Source of the DNA: a virus | Taxonomy: Duplodnaviria; Heunggongvirae; Uroviricota; Caudoviricetes | Length of the DNA: 14,341 bases | Strand: one strand, 5' to 3' | IMG/VR virus record: IMGVR_UViG_2703718829_000006 | Location: 1-14,341 of that record | In this document: piece by piece, positions 2,830 through 13,012 of the stretch | Position numbering within the stretch: position 1 is the stretch's first letter | Layout: each line of letters begins with the position of its first letter | Notes under the pieces: model-generated | What the model saw: the letters and a program-made list of their open reading frames with translations, nothing else | Told to the model about the DNA's origin: nothing | Databases searched by the model: none | Translations under genes and position numbers: made by a program

Positions 2830-3312
2830 CTATTTGATCATCAGAGACGGCTTGCCGAGCTTTATTTGCGCCCCGGGCACGTCAATACCAGCTTCGATTT
2901 GATGCTTGATAGCCAGTTTGTCTGGTTTGATATTCGTCTCGTACTCGATGAATTCAGGCGGTAATGCGCTGGCGTCAGTAATCTCGACAGATTTAGAAGG
3001 TGCGCGAACCGTTACCTGATGAACTCCGGCTTTAAGTGATTTTTTACCGATGGTTTCCAATGATTTAGCGACATACTCCTTCATGCTTGCCACGCGGTTT
3101 TCGGCGGCTTTTGCACGCTCAATAAGGCGCTTACTTTCTTCTTTCAGAGCCTCGGCATAAGCAGATTCGTTTTTGCAGACCGCAAGAATCTGCTCAACCT
3201 TTGCTTCCAGCTCCCACTCAATTCCATCAAGAGTGTCGGCTATCATTTCAGGCTCCATGCCGGAGTCAGTCAGCCTGGCGAAATCGTTGGCGATCTGATA
3301 AAGGGCTGTCAT
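2830..3312 (-). CDS. Siphovirus Gp157-family protein, commonly found next to RecT/Erf recombinases.
   Basis: 160 aa, acidic and coiled-coil-rich, with an N-terminus ([11 protein letters not shown]...) resembling Gp157-family proteins. Sits immediately downstream of recT with a 4-bp overlap. Confidence 0.65.
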   Translation of the reverse strand: MTALYQIANDFARLTDSGMEPEMIADTLDGIEWELEAKVEQILAVCKNESAYAEALKEESKRLIERAKAAENRVASMKEYVAKSLETIGKKSLKAGVHQVTVRAPSKSVEITDASALPPEFIEYETNIKPDKLAIKHQIEAGIDVPGAQIKLGKPSLMIK

Positions 3313-4223
3313 TGGGTAACCTCTTCAAATTTGGCTTTACACTTGGCGTAAACGGCCTGAACCTCTTGCTGTAGGCGCATTCCTGCGGTCATTTTGTAGG
3401 CCGTCTGGAAATGGGTTTTGAGGTCATTCATGTTTTCTGCCTGCTTCATGTCTTCGCAAAGCGAGCGGACGGTGTTAATCAGCTCTTGCTCAGCGTTTTC
3501 TTTCGACTGGATAACTTCACTTTCAGGCGTGTAAGACATAACCGGTTCGGTAAAAATGCCTTCGCTCTCGTTAAGCATGTCCACGGCATTATCGAGACGG
3601 TCAGCGCGCGGCCAGTATTTATAGGCGCGCTTCACGATCGTCTTTCGGGCCATCTCAGACCAGAAGTTGACCCAGGGGCCTTTCGGGGATGTACCGGCTT
3701 TACTCACCTTCCTGATTTCTTCAATTTCGGCGATGCTCATCTCTTCAGTCAGGTAGTCGCCGTCTGATGTTTTAACTGTGCAGTAGCCTCCGATAACGGC
3801 GCCACGCTCTTCAGGTGTGGCGAATGGGTTGTATTTGTGGGCCGGTGCTTTATCGAGGCCAATAGTTTCGTAAGCGTCGTTCGCATGAACCAGCTTGCAT
3901 TGGCCCCACTTAATGACGCCGGCTGATTGGGCTATATGCAAAAGCCCCATATAGCTGATATCAAGGCATACCATGCCGTCACGCGGTACTAAGTAGGCCA
4001 GCTTGCTGGCAGGGTTTAAGCTGATCCCAACCGCTGCCACGTTAATGATTGCGTTCTGAGCGCTGACAGGATTGCTAACTGCCGTTTTGGCTAACGTGTC
4101 ATTGCGCTGAAATAGCTGAATCGCAAACTGGCACTCTTTTGCCCATGTCAGGCTCTGGTCAGTAAGAGCGCTGGTAAACAGCGGCTCTTGCTGTTTAACG
4201 AACTGAATAAGATCGAAGCTCAT
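3309..4223 (-). CDS. recT: RecT-family single-strand annealing recombinase.
   Basis: 304 aa. The block [24 protein letters not shown]...AVDMLNESE closely parallels the conserved RecT block of Rac RecT (GPWVTHWEEMAKKTAIRRLFKYLP...AVSMDEKE). Confidence 0.9.
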
Positions 4224-5394: not shown

Positions 5395-6084
5395 CTACCC
5401 ATGCTTCCTATATGTCTGCGGCATGCTCCCAATAACCTTACCGAAGATGAACACCCGGTTCATCTCGTCTTTCTCGATCGGGTCCCACGGTGAGTAGCTT
5501 TTGTTATCAGAGATGACCAGCAGCTTATCCTTCATCATTTGCAGGCGCTTTACATGGGCTGTGTCGTCGTACAGAAACGCATAGATACCATCACCGTCGA
5601 AAGATTTAACTGTGATATCAACGAACAGCAGATCACCTGGTTCGATCGTTCCTGACATGCTGTCACCACGCACGTTAATGATGCGGATATTTTCCGCCTT
5701 CCTACCATCGAACATGTGACGAGCATCGTCAAACGAGTACTCAACCGAGCGTAGAACTTCTACAAACTCACGGTTGATGACTCCCGGCCCAGCACTGACT
5801 TCTATATCAAGAACGTCAATCTTGAAGTATTTGGAATGGCTGACAGTTGATTGTATTGGTTGCACTGTACTGTCTGACATATTTCCAACGCCAGAAGATA
5901 ACCATTCTGCGCGCACACCCAAAGCGTTCGCGATCTCCACGATTTTAGTTGTTTGATTAGCTTTCCCTGTTTCGATTTTCTGAATAGCAGCCTGGCTAAC
6001 CCCGACCAAATCCCCAAGCGCCTTTTGTGTAAGGCCTCGCGCTAATCTGGCTTCTTTAAGTCTTTCTGAGAGTGTTGTTTTCAT
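5395..6084 (-). CDS. cI: CI-like prophage repressor (N-terminal HTH plus C-terminal S24 LexA-like autopeptidase domain).
   Basis: HTH region LSERLKEARLARGLTQKALGDLVGVSQAAIQKIETGK. The C-terminal domain has GDSM (catalytic Ser) and a VKRL lysine typical of S24 self-cleaving repressors. Start placed at the ATG at 6084; the ORF is open up to 6150, but that upstream ATG lies inside the operator palindrome. Confidence 0.88.
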   Translation of the reverse strand: MKTTLSERLKEARLARGLTQKALGDLVGVSQAAIQKIETGKANQTTKIVEIANALGVRAEWLSSGVGNMSDSTVQPIQSTVSHSKYFKIDVLDIEVSAGPGVINREFVEVLRSVEYSFDDARHMFDGRKAENIRIINVRGDSMSGTIEPGDLLFVDITVKSFDGDGIYAFLYDDTAHVKRLQMMKDKLLVISDNKSYSPWDPIEKDEMNRVFIFGKVIGSMPQTYRKHG

Positions 6085-6161
6085 AGTCCAAATGTACAAC
6101 CAAGGTTTTATTCTATCAAACGAAAATGGTTGTTGACTAAAAACAACCATAGTTTTAATCT
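6072..6161. promoter_or_regulatory. Putative OR operators and pR promoter between cI and cro.
   Basis: 25-bp dyad ATGGTTGTT-gactaaa-AACAACCAT at 6126-6150. A further GTTGTTTT at 6074-6081 abuts the cI start codon. A -35-like TTGACT at 6133-6138 and a -10-like TAATCT at 6156-6161 lie upstream of the cro Shine-Dalgarno GGAGG. Confidence 0.5.
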
Positions 6162-6188: not shown

Positions 6189-6419
6189 ATGAACCCAGCT
6201 ATCAAAACAGCGATCAATATCGTTGGTTCACAAAAGAAACTGGGCGCTGCTTGCGAAGTTTCACAGCAGGCCGTCTATAAGTGGCTTCACAACAAAGCAA
6301 AGGTATCCCCTGAACATGTCGGCAGCATTGTTACGGCTACTGGTGGAGTAGTGAAGGCATACCAGATTCGCCCGGATCTTCCGAAGTTGTTTCCACACAC
6401 CGAAAAGAACGCAGCTTAA
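6189..6419 (+). CDS. cro: Cro-like HTH regulator (YdaS/Cro family).
   Basis: 76 aa, divergent from cI, with a strong GGAGG Shine-Dalgarno. HTH segment QKKLGAACEVSQQAVYKWL. Position and pattern match YdaS-type Cro analogues. Confidence 0.8.
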   Translation: MNPAIKTAINIVGSQKKLGAACEVSQQAVYKWLHNKAKVSPEHVGSIVTATGGVVKAYQIRPDLPKLFPHTEKNAA

Positions 6420-6488: not shown

Positions 6489-7028
6489 ATGCAACCACTT
6501 CCATACCAACAGACTAGCGGATTTAGCCCGACTGCGGTGATAAATCGTTCTCAAACAAAACAGGTGCTAGGCCACGAAAAAATCCGTGATGCCGTCCGCG
6601 CCTGGTCGGCTGTAGATAATCAGGATGTCGTTGCCACACTCATTGTGAATGAGTATCGGGAGCAGGGCGGCGGCACCATCGATTTCCCTGATGATGTCAG
6701 CCGTGCACGCCAGAAGCTGTTCCGCTTCCTCGATAACAAATTCGATTCTGAAAAATACCGAAATAACGTGCGTGAACTGACCCCGGCAATTCTGGCGGTA
6801 CTACCGCTGGAATATCGCGGTTACCTGGTTGAGCAGGATAGCTTCATGGCTAGGTTGGCTGAAATGGAAAAGGAACTCAGTGAGGCAAAACAGGCTGTCA
6901 TTCTCAACGCACCACGCCACCAGAAACTGAAGGAAATTAGTGAAGGTATTGTGTCGATGTTTCGTGTGGACCCAGATCTGGCTGGTCCATTGATGGCGAT
7001 GGTTACTACCATGCTGGGGGCGATATGA
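6489..7028 (+). CDS. YdaT-like protein in the cII position (putative CII functional analogue).
   Basis: 179 aa with an AAGGAG Shine-Dalgarno, immediately after the Cro/YdaS-like gene and before O. Motifs EYREQGGG and LTPAILAVLP resemble YdaT-family proteins, as recalled. Confidence 0.55.
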   Translation: MQPLPYQQTSGFSPTAVINRSQTKQVLGHEKIRDAVRAWSAVDNQDVVATLIVNEYREQGGGTIDFPDDVSRARQKLFRFLDNKFDSEKYRNNVRELTPAILAVLPLEYRGYLVEQDSFMARLAEMEKELSEAKQAVILNAPRHQKLKEISEGIVSMFRVDPDLAGPLMAMVTTMLGAI

Positions 7029-7114
7029 CAGGTTCAGAAATGGCGAAAGCCGGTCTGCTGGAACAGAACCGACTTTCAGGTGCAAATCGTAACACACTCA
7101 TTGCGGGAGGAATT

Positions 7115-8044
7115 ATGGCAAACACTGCTGAGATATTCAATTTTCCAGTGCCGGATGCGGCACAAAAGGAGCCGCGCGTGGCAGATCTCGATGATGGTTA
7201 TACGCGCATTGCAAATGAGTTGCTGGAAGTTGTGATGCTGGCCGGATTAACACAGCACCAGCTTCTGGTCTTCCTGGCTGTCATGCGCAAAACATATGGT
7301 TTTAATAAAAAACTGGATTGGGTGAGCAACGAGCAACTGTCCGAATTGACCGGGATATTGCCGCACAAGTGTTCTGCTGCAAAAAGTGTTCTGGTAAAGC
7401 GTGGGATTTTGATTCAGAGCGGGCGGAATATCGGTATTAATAATGTGGTCAGTGAATGGTCAACATTACCCGAATCAGGTAAGAAAAATAAAGTTTACCT
7501 GAAAGAGGTAAATTTACCTGAATCAGGTAAGAAAAGTTTACCCAAATCAGGTAAAGGCGTTTACCCGAATCAGGTAAACACAAAAGACAAACTAACAAAA
7601 GACAATATAAAACCTTTTTCGTCCGAGAATTCTGGCGAATCCTCTGACCAGCCAGAAAACGATCTTCCTGTGGTGAAACCAGATGCTGCAATTCAGAGCG
7701 GCAGCAAGTGGGGGACAGCAGAAGACCTGACCGCCGCAGAGTGGATGTTTGACATGGTGAAGACCATCGCGCCATCAGCCAGAAAACCGAATTTTGCTGG
7801 GTGGGCTAACGATATCCGCCTGATGCGTGAACGTGACGGACGTAACCACCGCGACATGTGCGTGCTGTTCCGCTGGGCATGCCAGGACAACTTCTGGTCC
7901 GGTAACGTGCTGAGTCCGGCCAAACTCCGCGACAAGTGGACCCAGCTCGAAATCAACCGAAACAAGCAACAGGCTGGCGTGACAGCTAGCAAACCAAAAC
8001 TCGACCTGACAAACACAGACTGGATTTACGGGGTGGATCTATGA
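7115..8044 (+). CDS. O: Replication initiation protein O (lambda O family).
   Basis: Start placed at the ATG at 7115, preceded by GGGAGG. The N-terminal domain (VADLDDGYTRIANELLE...MRKTYGFNKK) resembles lambda O. The iteron origin is embedded mid-gene, as in lambda. The stop overlaps the start of P. Confidence 0.85.
   Translation: MANTAEIFNFPVPDAAQKEPRVADLDDGYTRIANELLEVVMLAGLTQHQLLVFLAVMRKTYGFNKKLDWVSNEQLSELTGILPHKCSAAKSVLVKRGILIQSGRNIGINNVVSEWSTLPESGKKNKVYLKEVNLPESGKKSLPKSGKGVYPNQVNTKDKLTKDNIKPFSSENSGESSDQPENDLPVVKPDAAIQSGSKWGTAEDLTAAEWMFDMVKTIAPSARKPNFAGWANDIRLMRERDGRNHRDMCVLFRWACQDNFWSGNVLSPAKLRDKWTQLEINRNKQQAGVTASKPKLDLTNTDWIYGVDL
7466..7620. repeat. Origin of replication (ori-lambda-like): five 17-bp iterons plus an adjacent A-rich region, inside the O gene.
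   Basis: TTACC-N7-GGTAA palindromic iterons at 7466-7482, 7495-7511, 7514-7530, 7538-7554 and 7561-7577, followed by the A-rich tract 7578-7620. Confidence 0.8.
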
Positions 8045-8742
8045 AAAACATCGCCGCACAGATGATTAACTTTGACCGTGAGCAGATGCGTCGGATCGCC
8101 AACAACATGCCGGAACAGTACGACGAAAAGCCGCAGGTACAGCAGGTAGCGCAGATCATCAATGGTGTGTTCAGCCAGTTACTGGCAACTTTCCCGGCGA
8201 GCCTGGCTAACCGGGACCAGAACGAACTGAACGAAATCCGCCGCCAGTGGGTTCTGGCTTTCCGGGAAAACGGGATCACCTCGATGGAGCAGGTTGACGC
8301 AGGAATGCGCGTAGCCCGTCGGCAGAATCGACCATTCCTGCCATCACCCGGGCAGTTTGTTGCCTGGTGCCGAGAAGAAGCATCCGTTAACGCCGGGCTG
8401 CCAAACGTCAGCGAGCTGGTTGATATGGTCTATGAGTATTGTCGGAAGCGTGGCCTGTATCCGGATGCAGAGTCTTATCCGTGGAAATCAAACGCGCACT
8501 ACTGGCTGGTTACCAACCTGTACCAGAACATGCGGGCCAATGCGCTGACTGACGCGGAATTACGGCGCAAGGCTGCCGATGAACTGACTTGTATGACCGC
8601 GCGAATTAACCGTGGTGAGGCGATACCTGAACCAGTAAAACAACTTCCTATCATGGGCGGCAGACCTCTAAATCGTGCACAGGCTCTGGCGAAGATCGCA
8701 GAAATCAAAGCTAAGTTCGGACTGAAAGGAGCCAGTGTATGA
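8041..8742 (+). CDS. P: Replication protein P (DnaB helicase loader).
   Basis: 233 aa, essentially matching lambda P along its length as recalled (MKNIAAQM.NFDREQMRRIANNMPEQYDEKPQVQQVAQIINGVFSQLLATFPASLANRDQNE...). Confidence 0.95.
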   Translation: MKNIAAQMINFDREQMRRIANNMPEQYDEKPQVQQVAQIINGVFSQLLATFPASLANRDQNELNEIRRQWVLAFRENGITSMEQVDAGMRVARRQNRPFLPSPGQFVAWCREEASVNAGLPNVSELVDMVYEYCRKRGLYPDAESYPWKSNAHYWLVTNLYQNMRANALTDAELRRKAADELTCMTARINRGEAIPEPVKQLPIMGGRPLNRAQALAKIAEIKAKFGLKGASV

Positions 8743-9038
8743 CGGGAAAAGAAGCAATTATTCATTACCTGGGGACGCATAAGAGCTTCTGTGCGCAGGA
8801 CGTTGCTGCGGTAACAGGCGCAACAGTAACCAGCATAAATCAGGCTGCGGCTAAAATGGCGCGGACAGGAATCTTAGTCATTGATGGTAAGGTCTGGCGA
8901 ACGGTGTATTACCGGTTCGCTACCAGGGAAGAACGGGAAGGAAAGGTGAGCACGAACCTGATTTTTAAGGAGTGTCGCCAGAGTGCCGCGATGAAGCGGG
9001 TTTTATTTGTTTATGCGGCGGCGGGAGGAAATCAGTGA
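8739..9038 (+). CDS. ren: Ren (exclusion protein Ren-like).
   Basis: 99 aa (MTGKEAIIHYLGTH.SFCA.DVAA.TGATVTSINQAAAKMAR...VWRTVYYRFATREEREGK), highly similar to lambda Ren as recalled. 4-bp overlap with P. Confidence 0.9.
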   Translation: MTGKEAIIHYLGTHKSFCAQDVAAVTGATVTSINQAAAKMARTGILVIDGKVWRTVYYRFATREEREGKVSTNLIFKECRQSAAMKRVLFVYAAAGGNQ

Positions 9039-9130
9039 GGTTGACGATAACTCGTGTCTGGAGTTATATTTTGCCCGTTGCCGCAAAATCGGCACACGGG
9101 ATTGGCGTCCCGGAATACTACTCAACGCAT

Positions 9131-9151
9131 ACCGCGTTAAGCGGTTTTTTT
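9131..9151 (+). terminator. Intrinsic terminator after ren (tR2-like position).
   Basis: ACCGC-gttaa-GCGGT hairpin followed by TTTTTTT. Confidence 0.6.
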
Positions 9152-9250
9152 ATGCGCTAAGCACGGCTACGCCCAAATTATGGTGGGCTGTGTGAGGGCT
9201 TCTTCGGGAGCGCCGGGTTTGAGTAGCCGGTTACGCCAACCTTGCACAGT

Positions 9251-9283
9251 TCACCACCAGTCGATTGGCGTCGTTGGTGGTGA
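9251..9283. promoter_or_regulatory. Perfect 9-bp inverted repeat with a 15-bp spacer, just upstream of the Bro-N gene.
   Basis: TCACCACCA (9251-9259) and TGGTGGTGA (9275-9283), about 25 bp upstream of the ATG at 9308. Could be an operator or a 5'UTR hairpin. Confidence 0.4.
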
Positions 9284-9307
9284 TGGTTAACCTGATGAGG
9301 TGATACT

Positions 9308-9916
9308 ATGACTACTCAATTAGCATTCCACAAAACGACTTTTACCCCAATTTGCCACAATAACAGAATTTGGCTTACTGCCACTGAAGTTGGTTTAGCT
9401 CTGGAATATGCGGACGATAAAGCAGTTCAGCGCATTTACTCTCGTCACTCAGATGAATTTACAGATATGATGACAAGGGTGGTCAAAGTGACCACCCCTC
9501 GTGGAATGCAGGAGTCTCGAGTATTTAGCCTTCGCGGAGCCCATTTGATCGCCATGTTTGCACGAACTCCTGTAGCCAAAGAGTTCCGTCGCTGGGTTCT
9601 GGATATTCTCGATCGAGAAGTTCAACAATCCCCAATCATAAAACAATTCACTGATAACGAACTTTGCACACTTGCTTGGTTGTGGCGAGCTGGGGATGCG
9701 ATGTTAACCGCCTGCCAGAACGTTACTCCTCTTCTTCAGGTTGCGGAGCATCGTGAAGCTGGTCGCTTCACTTCTATCGAGCAAGAATATCCCCAGATAC
9801 TCAATAAGGCACAGGCAATCCTTGCCAGAGAAACGGCACATGTAAAATTCCGGCCGTGGCAGGATGATAAGTGGAGTCGAGTTTTGCCGCATTTACGTTC
9901 GGATCGATTACAGTAG
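9308..9916 (+). CDS. Bro-N domain protein (antirepressor/Roi-like family).
   Basis: 202 aa with a GAGGTG Shine-Dalgarno. The N-terminal half fits the Bro-N fold pattern (F....NNRIWLTATEVGLALEY.D......R.......T.GG.Q....I.E.G.Y.LI..S....A..F..WV...). The C-terminal half is unassigned. Confidence 0.8.
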   Translation: MTTQLAFHKTTFTPICHNNRIWLTATEVGLALEYADDKAVQRIYSRHSDEFTDMMTRVVKVTTPRGMQESRVFSLRGAHLIAMFARTPVAKEFRRWVLDILDREVQQSPIIKQFTDNELCTLAWLWRAGDAMLTACQNVTPLLQVAEHREAGRFTSIEQEYPQILNKAQAILARETAHVKFRPWQDDKWSRVLPHLRSDRLQ

Positions 9917-10377
9917 ATTCCAATTAACAATGAGAAACACATAGCCACCCCGTGGTATTGAAACCATATAATGTTGGATTTGAAAACAGATCTTTTTCCA
10001 TGTATTAATAACTACATCCCCGCGAGTGATTCAAAAAGGAGGGCCCAATTTTGTCCGAGTTTTTGTATTCCCCCGCATGCCGCTGCGGAGCACTACATCT
10101 GAGTGTCTGACTAGGGGATAAAATTAGACTGGATAGTGAGAAGAAAGTGGCGTGCTAGGCTGTGCCGAGTGCTACCAGTACACCCTGGGGGTGTGCAGCT
10201 TTCGCCGAGACTGTAGTGGGTATCGGTTAATGCACGAAAAACCGAGAGGTCAGACAACCAATTTGCCGTAGGATTGTTTCCGGTGCGATACCGGTGTACT
10301 AACTGAAAGCAATGCGAAAAAGCATAAACTCGGTCCTTCAGTCGCCCTACACACTATTTACTAAGAAGGGCTAAAGC

Positions 10378-10734
10378 ATGGATACAATTATCACATGGAT
10401 GGGAGATCGTCTGTTGGGGTGGATAACAAACAAATCCGATCTGCGGCAGAGGGCAATCACTGGATTAACTCCTGCGATTTGTTCAACAATTTTATATACT
10501 GAAAAATTAAAACGTGGTGAGCCTAATAACCCAAACGAAGAAGAAAAACTTTATAGGCTTTGGTATGAAGCGTCTTCCCAAGTCGTAGACTTTGATCGAG
10601 AGCTGGCTAAAAGATGTTTAGATAAATCAGAATATTGGCTTCATTCTGAATTATATAGCCCTGAGAAAGTTGAAGAGCTAAACATTTCTTTGGTTGGTAT
10701 GAAGGCAACGCTTGAAGGAATAAAGCACAATTAA
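10378..10734 (+). CDS. Hypothetical AT-rich orphan protein (118 aa), accessory/moron gene.
   Basis: Clean ORF with an AAGAAGGG Shine-Dalgarno-like sequence. Visibly more AT-rich than the flanking phage genes. No recognised motif. Followed by a hairpin plus T-run at 10865-10888. Confidence 0.55.
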   Translation: MDTIITWMGDRLLGWITNKSDLRQRAITGLTPAICSTILYTEKLKRGEPNNPNEEEKLYRLWYEASSQVVDFDRELAKRCLDKSEYWLHSELYSPEKVEELNISLVGMKATLEGIKHN

Positions 10735-10864
10735 AACCTTTGATTTGCGATAATCAACTCGCCATAATCATGTCATCGGAGCCTGAACAACTCCGGTGAC
10801 TTCTGCGCTAAACGGGGACGTTTATGCGCACACACAATCCAAACTCTCTTCTCCCTCCACAGAT

Positions 10865-10888
10865 GCAGAAATGCACCTGCGTTTTTTT
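10865..10888 (+). terminator. Putative weak intrinsic terminator closing the accessory insert.
   Basis: GCAG-aaatgcac-CTGC followed by G and TTTTTTT, upstream of the ybcN start. Confidence 0.4.
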
Positions 10889-10921
10889 GCATCCAACGTT
10901 TGACCTCTGCGGAGGTGAAGC

Positions 10922-11377
10922 GTGAACCTCCCACAAGACGGTATCAAATTGCATCGCGGTAACTTCACCGCTATCGGTCAGCAGATCCAGCCTTATCTGG
11001 AGGACGGCAAATGCTTTCGCATGGTGCTTAAACCGTGGCGCGAAAGACGCAGTCTTTCCCAGAATGCACTCAGCCACATGTGGTACAGCGAAATCAGTGA
11101 GTACCTCATCAGCAGGGGGAAATCGTTCGCTACTGCAGCATGGGTAAAAGATGCTCTCAAACACACATACCTCGGTTATGAAACCAAGGACCTGGTTGAT
11201 GTCGTAACCGGCGAAATCACTACGATCCAGTCGTTACGCCATACCTCCGATCTTGATACCGGAGAGATGTATGTCTTCCTGTGTAAGGTTGAAGCCTGGG
11301 CGATGAATATTGGCTGCCGCCTGACTATTCCGCAGAGCTGCGAGTTCCAGCTGCTGCGCGACAAGCAGGAGGCGTAA
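10922..11377 (+). CDS. ybcN: NinB-family protein (DLP12 YbcN-like, described as a DNA base-flipping protein).
   Basis: 151 aa, GTG start with a GGAGGTG Shine-Dalgarno. The [12 protein letters not shown] motif matches the NinB RSL.QN motif, and the overall sequence matches DLP12 YbcN as recalled. Confidence 0.8.
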
Positions 11378-11547: not shown

Positions 11548-11830
11548 TTTGAGAAAAGCAGCGCGTGGTCGGGAATGCCAGGTAAGAATCCCTGGCGTAT
11601 GTAATGGCAATTCTGAGACGTCTGTACTGGCACATATCCGGCTGGCTGGATTGTGCGGTACCGGTATCAAACCGCCAGACCTGATTGCCACCATTGCATG
11701 TTCTGCCTGTCACGACGAAATCGACCGCCGCACACATTTTGTCGATGCTGAGTATGCAAAAGAATGCGCGCTGGAAGGTATGGCGAGAACACAGGTTATC
11801 TGGCTGAAAGAGGGGGTTATTAAGGCGTGA
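11540..11830 (+). CDS. ybcO: YbcO-like protein (DLP12 YbcO family, described as a putative nuclease).
   Basis: Start at the ATG at 11540, preceded by AAGGAGGA. The 96-aa product ([33 protein letters not shown]...[11 protein letters not shown]) has conserved Cys/His and matches DLP12 YbcO as recalled. Confidence 0.85.
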
Positions 11831-12189
11831 ATACCTACAGCATCACATTACCCTGGCCTCCGAGCAATAATCGCTATTACCGCCATAATCGCGGGCGCAC
11901 GCACATCAGCGCAGAGGGGCAGGCATACCGCGATAACGTCGCCCGAATCATTAAAAACGCAATGCTGGATATCGGCCTGGCTATTCCTGTGAAAATCCGC
12001 ATTGAGTGTCACATGCCGGATCGCCGTCGCCGTGACCTGGATAATCTGCAAAAAGCTGCTTTTGACGCACTTACCAAAGCAGGTTTCTGGCTGGATGATG
12101 TTCAGGTCGTTGATTACCGTGTTGTGAAGATGCCCGTTACCAAAGGTGGGAAGCTGGAGCTGACCATCACTGAACTGGGAGATGAATGA
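11827..12189 (+). CDS. rusA: RusA Holliday junction resolvase.
   Basis: 120 aa ([89 protein letters not shown]), near-identical to E. coli RusA as recalled. GTG start overlapping the ybcO stop. Confidence 0.95.
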
Positions 12190-12326
12190 TGTTTGAGTCT
12201 TATATGGCAGAACGTCTTCGCCGCCGCTGGGTGCGCCTGCGCTTATATCATTTTCCCGGTTCTGTTTTGACCGATTACCGAATACTGAAGAATTACGCCA
12301 AAACACTGAAAGGAGCTGCCGCATGA
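12186..12326 (+). CDS. ylcG: YlcG-like small protein (46 aa). Not in the ORF track because it is short.
   Basis: ATG overlaps the rusA stop. Translation [46 protein letters not shown]. Position after rusA matches the DLP12 gene order. The stop overlaps the start of the Q-like gene. Confidence 0.6.
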
Positions 12327-13012
12327 ATACCCAATATTTACAGTATGTCCGCGAGCAACTCATGGTGGCTACCGCTGACTTGAGCGGAGCAACGAAAGGC
12401 CAGCTTGAAGCCTGGCTGGAGCATGCACAATTTGATACTGGTACATACAAACGAAAGAAGCGACGCATTCTGGATGAGGTAACTGGCAAGATTATTATGC
12501 TGGATAATCCGCCGATTTCCGGTAAACAGTCGTACGCAAAAGGTTCATCTGTCGCCCTGATCAGTCCGGTCGAGTTTTCAACCTCTTCATGGCGCCGCGC
12601 TGTTCTGTCTCTCGATGAGCATCAGAAAGCATGGTTGCTGTGGAGTTACAGTGAAAATATTCGCTGGGAGCATCAGGTTGCCATAACGCAGTGGGCATGG
12701 AGCGAGTTTAAGACTCTGTTGGGTACCAGAAAAATTGCAGGTAAGACACTGGAACGCCTGAAGAAGTTGATCTGGCTGGCGGCACAGGATGTGAAGAGCG
12801 AACTGGCAGGGCGTGAGGCTTATGAATACCAGGAACTGGCGTCACTGGTGGGAGTGACATCAAAAAACTGGTCTGAGACATTCACTGAACGCTGGGTTGC
12901 AATGAAGCACATTTTTCTACAGCTTGATAGCGAAGCTTTATTGCTTCTAACGAGAACACGTTCAAAACAAAAGGCGACATTTTCACAGCAAAATATTGCA
13001 AAACTGGATTAA
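12323..13012 (+). CDS. Putative late-gene antiterminator (Q-like). The call rests mainly on position.
   Basis: 229 aa, immediately upstream of the late regulatory region and lysis cassette, in the Q position of lambdoid genomes. Sequence is not lambda Q, and the family assignment was not verified. Confidence 0.55.
   Translation: MNTQYLQYVREQLMVATADLSGATKGQLEAWLEHAQFDTGTYKRKKRRILDEVTGKIIMLDNPPISGKQSYAKGSSVALISPVEFSTSSWRRAVLSLDEHQKAWLLWSYSENIRWEHQVAITQWAWSEFKTLLGTRKIAGKTLERLKKLIWLAAQDVKSELAGREAYEYQELASLVGVTSKNWSETFTERWVAMKHIFLQLDSEALLLLTRTRSKQKATFSQQNIAKLD

What the first reader, a model, noticed from the sequence alone, without database searches (positions are those of the whole stretch)
9917..10377. 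460-bp ORF-free region inside a compact phage genome: candidate structured ncRNA or decayed gene
Phage genomes are densely coding, yet this stretch has no ORF of 60 aa or more on either strand. It contains a perfect TATAAT hexamer at 9967-9972 and GC-rich segments with local inverted repeats (for example CCGGT-gcgat-ACCGG at 10280-10294), and it sits directly upstream of the AT-rich orphan gene. Possibilities are a long structured 5' leader, a regulatory or antitoxin-like RNA partner of the 118-aa protein, or a pseudogenised remnant. A tiny ORF of about 43 codons begins at 9972.
Basis: seen in the sequence. Interest (0 to 1): 0.6.

Follow-up and report, generated by a model that had tools for sequence, protein, structure and literature searches.

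The report
Undescribed structured RNA gene in prophages
The "empty" 460-bp gap holds a roughly 330-nucleotide RNA gene with its own promoter and an elaborate, evolutionarily maintained fold; it matches no catalogued RNA family and is carried by lambda-like prophages of E. coli and related gut bacteria.

Summary
Window 10016-10343 (+) is a conserved RNA element, 333-336 nt long in 33 distinct homologues (73-100% identity). These come from E. coli, Klebsiella, Enterobacter and Obesumbacterium prophages.

- **Fold.** It has 102 base pairs; 24-26 of them show compensatory double changes. 97.5% of cells are paired, against 33-44% in slid controls.
- **Tertiary contacts.** A 6-bp kissing loop and an 8-bp pseudoknot tie a near-invariant 5' domain to a variable 3' domain.
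- **Strand.** G·U outnumbers A·C by 261 to 3, which fixes the + strand.
- **Signals.** A sigma-70-type promoter (TTGAAA-18-ATTAAT, 9980-10009) sits at a fixed distance in 30 of 31 upstream variants. An intrinsic terminator follows the core in 17 of 27 downstream variants.
- **Context.** Flanking genes differ between lineages. In the window's lineage the terminator is missing and the 118-aa gene follows directly.
- **5' domain.** It carries a strong Shine-Dalgarno sequence and a UUG start for a 19-codon mini-ORF. That ORF is built from the strands that form the tertiary contacts.
- **Prior knowledge.** There is no Rfam 15 match, no RefSeq annotation in 159 E. coli genomes, and no paper containing the sequence.

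It is not a decayed gene and not a ToxI-like repeat antitoxin. The function is unknown. My best guess is a stand-alone RNA whose fold is gated by ribosome loading.

The parts
9980..10009 (+). Predicted sigma-70-type promoter: -35 TTGAAA (9980-9985), 18-nt spacer, -10 ATTAAT (10004-10009). The predicted start is about 10016.
   Evidence: By eye and tabulated. 30 of 31 distinct upstream variants have TTGnnn, then 17-18 nt, then (T/A)T(T/A)AAT, ending 6 nt before ATCCCC, while the spacer sequence varies. The consensus scanner missed it because its rule needs A at position 2 of the -10 hexamer, which ATTAAT lacks. Not tested experimentally.
10016..10343 (+). Core of the structured RNA, from the P1 5' strand to the P6 3' strand (328 nt; 333-336 nt with the few flanking bases that were aligned).
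   Evidence: Conserved in 33 distinct homologues. RNAalifold and pair counts give 102 pairs, 97.4-97.6% paired, and 24-26 pairs with double-sided changes. G·U 261 against A·C 3. No Rfam hit.
10016..10119 (+). 5' domain, nearly invariant: P1 10016-10021/10114-10119, P2 10022-10029/10069-10076, P3 10032-10037/10060-10065, P4 10041-10044/10053-10056, P5 10082-10089/10098-10104.
   Evidence: P1 and P2 show no compensatory change (P2 never varies; P1 shows one A-U to G-U change and one unpaired cell), so they rest on energy alone. P3 and P5 vary on one side. P4 shows one compensatory change, G·U to U-A, in L182.
10036..10042 (+). Shine-Dalgarno sequence AAGGAGG, with 7 nt complementary to the 16S rRNA 3' end.
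   Evidence: GGAGG is invariant. Lineages L067, L068 and L182 read GGAGGUG instead, again 7 nt of complementarity through different flanking bases. The spacer to the start codon is variable. The 16S 3' end sequence is established knowledge.
10051..10110 (+). Mini-ORF: UUG start, 19 codons (MSEFLYSPACRCGALHLSV), UGA stop at 10108-10110.
   Evidence: Read from the sequence. UUG and UGA are invariant. The first 10 residues are conserved as M[ST][EQ]FL[YN]SPAC. Later residues change with the RNA pairing. There is a premature stop at codon 13 in the L122 and L014 group. Translation has not been tested.
10091..10096 (+). Kissing-loop strand A (P5 loop, CACUAC).
   Evidence: Pairs with 10213-10218. 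100% of cells are paired and 3 of 6 pairs are compensatory, in four haplotypes: CACUAC/GUAGUG, CGCAAC/GUUGCG, CAUCAC/GUGAUG and CACCAC/GUGGUG.
10213..10218 (+). Kissing-loop strand B (P11 loop, GUAGUG).
10105..10112 (+). Pseudoknot strand A (GUCUGACU). It contains the mini-ORF stop codon.
   Evidence: Pairs with 10248-10255. 100% of cells are paired. C-G changes to U-A in four sequences, and there are two one-sided changes to wobble pairs.
10248..10255 (+). Pseudoknot strand B (GGUCAGAC).
10127..10343 (+). 3' domain, closed by P6 (10127-10132/10338-10343). It contains P7-P10 (a three-way junction), P11, P12, P13, P14 and P16.
   Evidence: Most of the covariation lies here, in P7, P8, P10, P11, P12 and P14.
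10280..10294 (+).
   Evidence: The closing pair covaries (A-U 16, C-G 5, U-A 4).
10344..10377 (+). Junction to the 118-aa ORF. There is no intrinsic terminator here, unlike in 17 of 27 downstream variants. A weak GCCCU...AGGGC stem overlaps the ORF's ribosome-binding site.
   Evidence: (no terminator found).
10378..10734 (+). 118-aa ORF, co-transcribed cargo in this lineage. It is a four-helix-bundle protein of unknown function (phrog_12412).

Best explanation
**What it is.** The gap contains a previously undescribed RNA gene.

**Shown.**
- A roughly 330-nt element (10016-10343, + strand) is conserved as a unit in lambdoid prophages of Enterobacterales, independently of its neighbouring genes.
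- It adopts a two-domain fold of about 100 base pairs that evolution maintains by compensatory changes.
- The two domains are clamped by a 6-bp kissing loop and an 8-bp pseudoknot.
- A promoter-like site sits at a fixed distance upstream. In most lineages an intrinsic terminator sits just downstream.

**Inferred.**
- It is transcribed from its own sigma-70 promoter as a discrete RNA that starts at P1 and acts as an RNA in its own right. It would be a scaffold, decoy or sensor carried as a 'moron' in the variable region between the replication genes and ninB.
- The invariant 5' domain holds a very strong ribosome-binding site and a UUG-initiated 19-codon ORF. The ORF's codons are the same strands that form P2, P5, the kissing loop and the pseudoknot. 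Ribosome loading and the compact fold should therefore exclude each other, which would make this a ribosome-gated conformational switch or dual-function RNA.
- In the window's lineage the terminator has been lost, so the same transcript continues into the 118-aa gene.

**Confidence by layer.** 'Real structured RNA gene, not a decayed gene': about 0.9. 'Stand-alone or trans-acting with a ribosome-gated fold': about 0.35. The overall figure is a blend of the two.
For: - **Conservation as a unit.** The core is conserved under different upstream and downstream genes, with fixed length in 33 distinct sequences.
- **Covariation.** There are 102 pairs, with 97.4% of cells paired against 33-44% when the partners are slid. 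24 pairs have double-sided change against 3-7 in the slid controls. 166 cells changed against 61±6 in shuffles (0 of 500 reach the observed value). With more distant members added, 26 pairs are compensatory.
- **Tertiary contacts.** The kissing loop and the pseudoknot are each 100% paired and each show compensatory changes.
- **Strand.** G·U 261 against A·C 3.
- **Signals.** The promoter is conserved in position in 30 of 31 variants and a terminator is present in 17 of 27.
- **Independence from cargo.** L042 and L068 have the RNA and terminator followed directly by nin-region genes, with no cargo gene.
- **Ribosome-binding site.** Shine-Dalgarno complementarity is kept at 7 nt through different bases in different lineages, the UUG is invariant, and the spacer varies.
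- **Not known.** No Rfam family matches at E up to 10 for the window or up to 5 for eight homologue loci. The region is unannotated in 159 RefSeq E. coli genomes.
- **Live phages.** It is present in the isolated phages Turner and IdasGreatGrand.
Against: - There are no expression data; the promoter, start site and terminator are predictions.
- The single-sequence folding energy is not better than shuffles (z = -0.62).
- P1 and P2 show no compensatory change (P2 never varies), so that part of the 5' domain has no covariation support. Its extreme sequence conservation is itself unexplained.
- The homologues fall into only about seven clades within one bacterial order, so independent compensatory events are few.
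- Cargo genes that follow the terminator have no room for a promoter of their own. This leaves a cis-regulatory role possible.
- No target, partner protein or phenotype is known, and no complementary site of 12 nt or more exists elsewhere in the window.
- The ribosome-gating idea rests only on geometric overlap.
Confidence: 0.55

Rival explanations
1. Cis-regulatory leader (riboswitch-, attenuator- or antiterminator-like). The RNA senses a signal such as a ligand, ribosome traffic on the mini-ORF, or infection state. It then controls read-through of the terminator that follows it, or translation of the 118-aa gene here, so gating expression of the variable and possibly toxic cargo genes.
For: - The layout promoter, structured leader, intrinsic terminator, gene is the classic arrangement. 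Two different 'expression platforms' exist: a terminator in 17 of 27 variants and a direct fusion to the ORF in the window-type lineages.
- Cargo genes start 25-50 nt after the terminator, with no room for their own promoter.
- All close homologues of the 118-aa ORF are preceded by the RNA.
Against: - The downstream genes are unrelated to one another (118 aa, 2-TM protein, protein with an Rx4H motif, 177 aa, 95 aa), and none matches Pfam or PADLOC.
- Two lineages have the RNA and terminator but no cargo.
- Terminator stems differ (CCGCC, CCACC, GCCACC) with no matching change in the invariant core, so no antiterminator pairing is supported.
- The RNA stays intact where the ORF is truncated.
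Confidence: 0.2
2. It is mainly an mRNA for a 12-19-aa peptide (MSEFLYSPAC...), for example a small toxin or regulatory peptide. The long structured remainder would control the peptide's translation and stability, as in hok-type mRNAs.
For: - The ribosome-binding site is strong and conserved, the spacer is variable, the UUG is invariant, and the first 10 residues are conserved.
- The same hairpin, with a similar N-terminus (MTKFLN...), occurs on an Alteromonas plasmid.
- An 11-nt pairing, 10055-10065 with 10323-10333, could fold back onto the start of the ORF.
Against: - Residues 11-16 change non-synonymously, following the RNA pairing, and one group has a stop at codon 13.
- The peptide is not a hydrophobic membrane helix like Ibs or Hok.
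- There is no antisense RNA signal. G·U against A·C shows the structure is on the + strand only.
- About 230 nt of covarying 3' domain with tertiary contacts is far more than a short ORF needs.
- The fold-back pairing has no covariation and is broken in L067, L068 and L182.
Confidence: 0.12
3. RNA partner (antitoxin-like, type III-like) dedicated to the 118-aa protein.
For: It is immediately adjacent and co-oriented with no terminator, and the RNA precedes the ORF in 46 of 47 viral loci and in Obesumbacterium and Enterobacter homologues.
Against: - There are no tandem or direct repeats.
- Most RNA-bearing lineages lack the protein.
- A 51%-identical homologue lacks the RNA.
- The ORF is truncated to 66 aa in a lineage that keeps the RNA.
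- The protein is a plain four-helix bundle with no significant match to ToxN or other nucleases.
Confidence: 0.05
4. Decayed protein gene, or a DNA-level site such as a recombination or replication site, with no RNA function.
For: GenBank records of phages Turner and IdasGreatGrand call two small 'hypothetical proteins' here. The element sits at a mosaic boundary and is flanked by a repeated pre-ninB element in L116.
Against: - All six frames are broken by stops, and no ORF is shared in frame and position between lineages.
- The small ORFs have no PHROG family.
- The length is fixed, with almost no indels.
- Substitutions are compensatory within helices and the G·U bias is strand-specific, which a DNA site or pseudogene would not show.
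Confidence: 0.03

Closest known systems
Large 'ornate' orphan ncRNAs of bacteria and phages (ROOL, GOLLD, OLE, raiA; Rfam families; cryo-EM in PMC12286853)
   Same: These are several hundred nucleotides long, with multi-helix junctions and long-range loop-loop or pseudoknot contacts supported by covariation. They are often carried by prophages, their function was unknown when found, and they are independent of any adjacent protein gene. In ROOL, GOLLD and OLE such kissing contacts proved to be intermolecular, which is also possible here.
   Different: There is no sequence or structure match to any of their Rfam models. This RNA is smaller (about 330 nt), restricted to Enterobacterales lambdoid prophages, and carries a strong ribosome-binding site with a mini-ORF inside its 5' domain.
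Translation-coupled structured mRNAs: hok mRNA (hok/sok), and the repZ/repY leader of IncI-alpha and IncB plasmids with its activating pseudoknot (recalled from established literature, not tested here)
   Same: Each has a short leader ORF whose translation remodels long-range pairings or pseudoknots conserved by covariation. Size is 300-400 nt in the case of hok.
   Different: There is no conserved toxin or replication gene downstream, no antisense RNA, and no Sok or hok-type Rfam hit. Here the tertiary contacts join two domains of a self-contained RNA that ends at its own terminator.
Dual-function RNAs (SgrS/SgrT, RNAIII/hld, Spot 42/SpfP)
   Same: These are discrete transcripts with their own promoter and terminator that both encode a very small peptide and have a structured functional RNA part.
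   Different: Those act through short single-stranded seed pairing with mRNAs. Here no target complementarity was found, and the fold is far more elaborate.
ToxI-type antitoxin RNAs of type III toxin-antitoxin systems
   Same: A non-coding RNA lies directly upstream of a small orphan protein gene on a mobile element.
   Different: ToxI-type RNAs are tandem 34-36-nt repeats processed by the toxin. Here there are no repeats and no fixed protein partner.

Membership tests
Any Rfam 15 family (4227 covariance models) | Score at or above the family's gathering threshold, or at least a consistent sub-threshold hit at the element. | tested here: not met
   The gathering scan of the window finds only isrK and C4, upstream. 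An E-value scan up to 10 of 8900-10900 finds nothing in 9917-10377. An E-value scan up to 5 of eight homologue loci finds nothing at the element.
Type III toxin-antitoxin antitoxin RNA (ToxI-like) | An array of tandem direct repeats (about 30-40 nt) upstream of the toxin gene. | tested here: not met
   Tandem Repeats Finder gives 0 rows and there are no direct-repeat families.
Type III toxin-antitoxin antitoxin RNA (ToxI-like) | A fixed partner endoribonuclease toxin (ToxN, AbiQ, CptN or TenpN fold). | tested here: not met
   Downstream genes differ between lineages. The 118-aa protein has no Pfam or PADLOC family and folds as a four-helix bundle with no significant PDB match.
Type I toxin mRNA (hok, Ibs and similar) | A conserved small hydrophobic toxin ORF. 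| tested here: not met
   Only the 19-codon ORF is shared. Its residues 11-16 vary freely, one group has a premature stop, and it is not a transmembrane-like sequence.
Type I toxin mRNA (hok, Ibs and similar) | A cis-encoded antisense RNA. | tested here: inconclusive
   The structure signal is strictly on the + strand (G·U 261 against A·C 3) and there is no Sok-type Rfam hit. The minus strand was not searched for a promoter across homologues.
Riboswitch or cis-regulatory leader | The same RNA lies upstream of functionally related genes. | tested here: not met
   There are at least five unrelated downstream proteins, and two lineages with none.
Riboswitch or cis-regulatory leader | An expression platform with mutually exclusive terminator and antiterminator pairing to the sensor. 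| tested here: inconclusive
   A terminator is present in 17 of 27 variants, but its stem sequence varies without any matching change in the core. I found no antiterminator by inspection. There was no experimental test.
Large ornate ncRNAs (ROOL, GOLLD, OLE, raiA) as homologous families | Match to the family covariance model. | tested here: not met
   It resembles them in kind only.
Dual-function (coding and non-coding) RNA | A functional translation start for a small ORF inside a discrete structured transcript. | tested here: inconclusive
   In silico, the Shine-Dalgarno sequence keeps 7 nt of complementarity by different bases across lineages, the UUG is invariant, and the spacer is variable. 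Translation itself cannot be tested with these tools.
Pseudogene or decayed protein gene | Residual protein similarity or a disrupted but recognisable reading frame. | tested here: not met
   No frame is conserved and the embedded ORFs have no PHROG family. The indel-free fixed length and helix-wise compensatory substitutions also argue against it. A full blastx against all proteins was not run.
tRNA or tmRNA | Cloverleaf or tmRNA detected by ARAGORN. | tested here: not met
   0 genes in the window.

The most novel reading that the evidence does not exclude
This is a new class of complex-folded RNA that engages the ribosome or another core host machine through its invariant 5' domain. Lambdoid prophages would use it in phage-host or phage-phage conflict. 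One version: a sensor RNA whose switch between the compact fold and the translated state gates the adjacent cassette of variable, possibly toxic, cargo genes. Another version: an RNA-only decoy or oligomeric assembly built through the kissing-loop contacts.
Probability: 0.25. Interest if true: 0.85.

Novelty: new member of a known kind. Interest (0 to 1): 0.7.

Why it matters
New RNAs of more than 300 nt with covariation-supported tertiary contacts are rare. Historically they have turned out to be ribozymes, ribonucleoprotein scaffolds or self-assembling particles.

This one sits in E. coli and its relatives, the best-studied bacteria, yet it is unannotated in all 159 complete E. coli genomes that carry it. 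In phage GenBank records it is mis-annotated as two tiny 'hypothetical proteins'.

It lies at the head of a cassette-like hotspot of orphan genes in lambdoid prophages. It may therefore open a route to understanding how such cargo is expressed or controlled.

It is directly testable, because it occurs in culturable phages (Turner, IdasGreatGrand) and in tractable strains such as E. coli EC93. At the least it deserves an Rfam family, so that genome annotation stops calling spurious ORFs here.

Tried and rejected
- **Rfam.** The gathering and E-value scans of the window and of eight homologue loci found nothing at the element.
- **tRNA and tmRNA.** None found.
- **Single-sequence folding.** Neither strand folds better than shuffles. 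This is uninformative and was superseded by the comparative analysis.
Rejected: it has no -35 and is not conserved.
- **ToxI-like repeats.** None.
- **Protein-coding or pseudogene reading.** No conserved frame and no PHROG family for the small ORFs.
- **First pseudoknot register.** My first guess was off by one column and failed (41% paired). It was corrected after mapping the columns.
- **Wider homologue searches.** The species-representative genome scan gave one hit, Enterobacter pasteurii. The loosened metagenome pattern mostly returned an unrelated marine coding sequence plus more enterobacterial copies. The distant search of phages added nothing. The distant search of plasmids gave only a 43-nt match on Alteromonas plasmids, which cannot be evaluated because it has no sequence variants.
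- **Base-pairing target inside the window.** No complementary stretch of 12 nt or more.
- **118-aa protein.** No Pfam or PADLOC family. The AlphaFold model is a four-helix bundle (pLDDT 77) with no significant PDB match.
- **Literature.** No paper contains the sequence. Keyword searches found nothing on this element. The Pas sRNA preprint section I read concerns other RNAs and the Gifsy-1 paper another region. One possibly relevant 2026 preprint on mining non-coding elements could not be opened.
- **Not attempted.** I did not build a covariance model, because only sequences already fetched could have been searched with it.
Full report
**Context.** The window is the early region of a lambdoid (DLP12-like) prophage. 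Pfam identifies the following genes:
- a cI-like S24 repressor (5395-6150, minus strand);
- a Cro/YdaS-like gene (6189-6419) and a YdaT/cII-like gene (6489-7028);
- the replication genes O (7025-8044) and P (8041-8742);
- further right, NinB-like (10922-11377), RusA (11827-12189) and antiterminator Q (12323-13012).

Upstream of the finding, Rfam detects isrK (9079-9151) and the C4 antisense RNA (9176-9261). These are followed by a Bro-N/P22AR antirepressor ORF (9308-9916). The finding is the gap between that ORF and a 118-aa ORF (10378-10734).

**Checking the observation.** The gap, the TATAAT at 9967-9972, the inverted repeat at 10280-10294 and the small ORF (which starts at 9971) are all present. 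Lack of long ORFs in 460 bp is what any non-coding sequence gives. The point of interest is a gap of that size inside a packed operon.

**Conservation.**
- The interval is 100% identical in the isolated phages Turner and IdasGreatGrand, and about 79% identical over its central 330 nt in two Klebsiella phages.
- It occurs once per genome in 159 of 5426 complete E. coli genomes, and RefSeq annotates nothing there.
- Pattern scans brought in more than 60 viral contigs, further metagenome contigs and Enterobacter pasteurii. Neighbours of 118-aa homologues added Obesumbacterium proteus and Enterobacter bugandensis.
- After removing duplicates there are 33 distinct copies, 73-100% identical to the window and all 333-336 nt long.
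- The conserved block runs from ATCCCCGCG (10016) to CAGTCG (10343). Outside it the sequences diverge, and the flanking genes differ. Upstream genes include an antirepressor, MazG-like, Ea22-like and methylase-like genes. Downstream genes include the 118-aa ORF, a roughly 178-aa protein with two hydrophobic ends, a roughly 180-aa protein with an RLRHNLLH (Rx4H) motif, a 177-aa protein and a 95-aa protein. In L042 and L068 NinB or DUF1367 follows directly, with no cargo.

**Structure.** RNAalifold on 25 sequences predicted 81 pairs, 17 of them with compensatory changes. Inspection and a pair screen added three features:
- a refined hairpin, P14;
- a six-pair loop-loop contact between the P5 loop (10091-10096) and the P11 loop (10213-10218);
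- an eight-pair pseudoknot, 10105-10112 with 10248-10255.

The pair counts for the full model of 102 pairs in 18 helices are as follows.

| Measure | Observed | Control |
|---|---|---|
| Cells forming a standard pair | 97.4% | 33-44% when 3' partners are slid by 1-3 columns |
| Pairs with changes on both sides | 24 | 3-7 in slid controls |
| Cells with changes on both sides | 166 | 61 ± 6 in shuffles; 0 of 500 shuffles reach the observed value |

Adding the more distant members gives 26 compensatory pairs, including one in the ribosome-binding-site hairpin P4.

The kissing loop exists in four mutually complementary versions, and one pseudoknot pair switches from C-G to U-A. Across all pairs there are 261 G·U cells and 3 A·C cells, so the structure belongs to the + strand RNA and not to DNA or the opposite transcript. 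Helix coordinates in the window are listed. Single-sequence energy was not distinctive, so the case rests on comparative evidence. The slid controls keep the relatedness of the sequences, but the sequences form only about seven clades, so independent events are limited.

**Expression signals (predicted).**
- In 30 of 31 distinct upstream variants, a TTGnnn hexamer lies 17-18 nt before a (T/A)T(T/A)AAT hexamer that ends six bases before ATCCCC, while the spacer sequence differs between lineages. In the window this is TTGAAA 9980-9985 and ATTAAT 10004-10009.
- The predicted start coincides with the first base of P1.
- In 17 of 27 distinct downstream variants, a canonical hairpin plus T-run lies 10-15 nt after P6.
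- In the lineages that carry the 118-aa ORF, including the window, there is no terminator and the ORF starts about 34 nt after P6.

**The 5' domain.**
- Columns 4-107 are almost invariant. Within it, AAGGAGG (10036-10042) is followed after a variable spacer by an invariant UUG (10051) that opens a 19-codon frame ending at an invariant UGA (10108-10110).
- Lineages L067, L068 and L182 read GGAGGUG instead. This keeps seven bases of complementarity to the 16S rRNA 3' end through different nucleotides, which argues that ribosome binding is selected.
- The first ten residues are conserved. Residues 11-16 change along with the kissing-loop and P5 pairing. One E. coli group has a stop at codon 13. 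From codon 11 onwards, RNA pairing therefore appears to outrank peptide sequence.
- The ORF is made of the 3' strands of P3 and P2, all of P5, kissing-loop strand A and the pseudoknot strand. A translating ribosome and the compact fold therefore cannot coexist. This is an inference from geometry.
- An alternative 11-nt pairing, 10055-10065 with 10323-10333, exists but has no covariation and is weakened in three lineages.

**What it is not.**
- No Rfam family matches, even at permissive thresholds, and there is no tRNA or tmRNA.
- There are no tandem or direct repeats, so it is not a ToxI-type antitoxin.
- No reading frame is shared across lineages and the small ORFs have no PHROG family, so it is not a decayed gene. 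The two 'hypothetical proteins' annotated here in phage Turner are probably spurious.

**Relation to the 118-aa gene.** In viral contigs the ORF is preceded by the RNA in 46 of 47 loci; the remaining locus lacks upstream sequence. Homologues of 69-79% identity in other genera are preceded by it too. Three results argue against a dedicated partnership:
- a 51%-identical homologue sits elsewhere, next to a theta-like gene and an integrase, with no RNA;
- one E. coli sub-lineage has the ORF cut to 66 aa while the RNA stays 98-99% intact;
- most RNA lineages have other cargo or none.

The protein is predicted to be a four-helix bundle with no significant structural match. The link is therefore real but lineage-specific: the RNA is the constant part and the protein is one of several cargos.

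**Mechanism.** I am confident (about 0.9) that this is a genuine, independently evolving structured RNA gene. I lean towards a stand-alone functional RNA rather than a leader, for three reasons:
- it has its own terminator;
- it persists without cargo;
- the terminator shows no covariation with the core.

Cargo genes behind the terminator have no room for a promoter of their own. A cis role in gating read-through, or translation in this window, therefore remains a serious rival (about 0.2). The strong ribosome-binding site embedded in the tertiary-contact strands suggests a ribosome-gated conformational switch or dual-function RNA. That step is inferred, not shown. No base-pairing target was found in the window.

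**Comparison with known systems and novelty.**
- In kind, it resembles the orphan ornate RNAs ROOL, GOLLD and OLE. They share size class, long-range contacts supported by covariation, prophage carriage and unknown function. In those RNAs such kissing contacts turned out to be intermolecular (PMC12286853). It is not homologous to them.
- In logic, it recalls hok-type mRNAs and IncI-alpha or IncB repZ-type leaders, where a short ORF remodels long-range pairings. It lacks their downstream gene and antisense RNA.
- I found no description of it. Sequence strings appear in no paper and keyword searches gave nothing relevant. One 2026 preprint on mining non-coding elements could not be read, so prior description cannot be fully excluded.
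- I class it as a new member of a known kind: a new family of large structured mobile-element RNAs.

Noticed in passing
window 9064-9916: There is a P1/P7 immI-like or Gifsy-1 IsrK-like module: c4-a1b1/isrK (9064-9151, with its own terminator at 9131-9145), the C4 antisense RNA (9176-9261), then a Bro-N + P22AR-C antirepressor ORF (9308-9916). A promoter-like site lies at 9041-9070. This is an antisense-RNA-controlled antirepressor inside a lambdoid early operon.
   Followed up: partly
window 10785-10895; L116 5050-5215 and 6290-6470: A conserved non-coding element of about 110-130 nt (GAACAACTCCGGTGACTTCTGCGC...CACAGATGCAGAAATGCACCTGCG-T-run) precedes ninB and contains a terminator-like hairpin (10861-10884). 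In L116 two copies flank the RNA-plus-cargo cassette as direct repeats, which suggests cassette exchange by recombination at this element.
   Followed up: partly
L002 3385-3936; L064, L046 and L053 downstream of the RNA; L116 5704-6237; L003 3372-3653: The slot after the RNA holds interchangeable orphan genes. One is a roughly 180-aa protein with an RLRHNLLHANKYE (Rx4H, HEPN-like) motif. Others are a roughly 178-aa protein with hydrophobic N- and C-termini, a 177-aa protein (MKNIIIDSNAW...) and a 93-95-aa protein. All are PHROG 'unknown function' or unmatched, and none is in PADLOC. The slot looks like a moron or defence-type hotspot.
   Followed up: partly
L005 2966-3172 (Alteromonas mediterranea plasmid pAMDE1): A 43-nt stretch is 86% identical to the Shine-Dalgarno/UUG hairpin (P3-P4) of the RNA and opens a similar mini-ORF start (MTKFLN...). 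It lies in a 1.4-kb unannotated region after a tyrosine recombinase gene and is followed by a T-run. The rest of the RNA is not shared. Only identical copies exist, so homology and structure could not be tested.
   Followed up: partly
L157-L180 (for example L157 1501-1701): In one E. coli sub-lineage the 118-aa ORF is truncated to 66 aa (also seen as phrog_8527 and proteins P0017-P0019), while the upstream RNA remains 98-99% identical.
   Followed up: yes
L001 5226-5357 and 5407-5526 (phage Turner, PP925837): The GenBank annotation calls two 'hypothetical proteins' (43 and 39 aa) inside the RNA element. They are not conserved in other lineages and are probably spurious calls.
   Followed up: yes
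window 10055-10065 and 10323-10333: This 11-nt pairing (10 of 11 complementary) links the first codons of the mini-ORF with the P16/P12 3' strands. It excludes P3, P4 and P12, so it could be an alternative conformer. All positions are invariant apart from a disrupting change in three lineages, so there is no covariation evidence.
   Followed up: partly
L057 about 3087-3400: One viral contig carries the RNA with its last 30 nt or so replaced by unrelated sequence from about alignment column 308. This looks like a truncation or an insertion junction.
   Followed up: no
L042 3314-3392: There is an Rfam isrJ hit (45.3 bits, above the gathering score) about 2.3 kb downstream of the RNA in one homologous prophage.
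   Followed up: no
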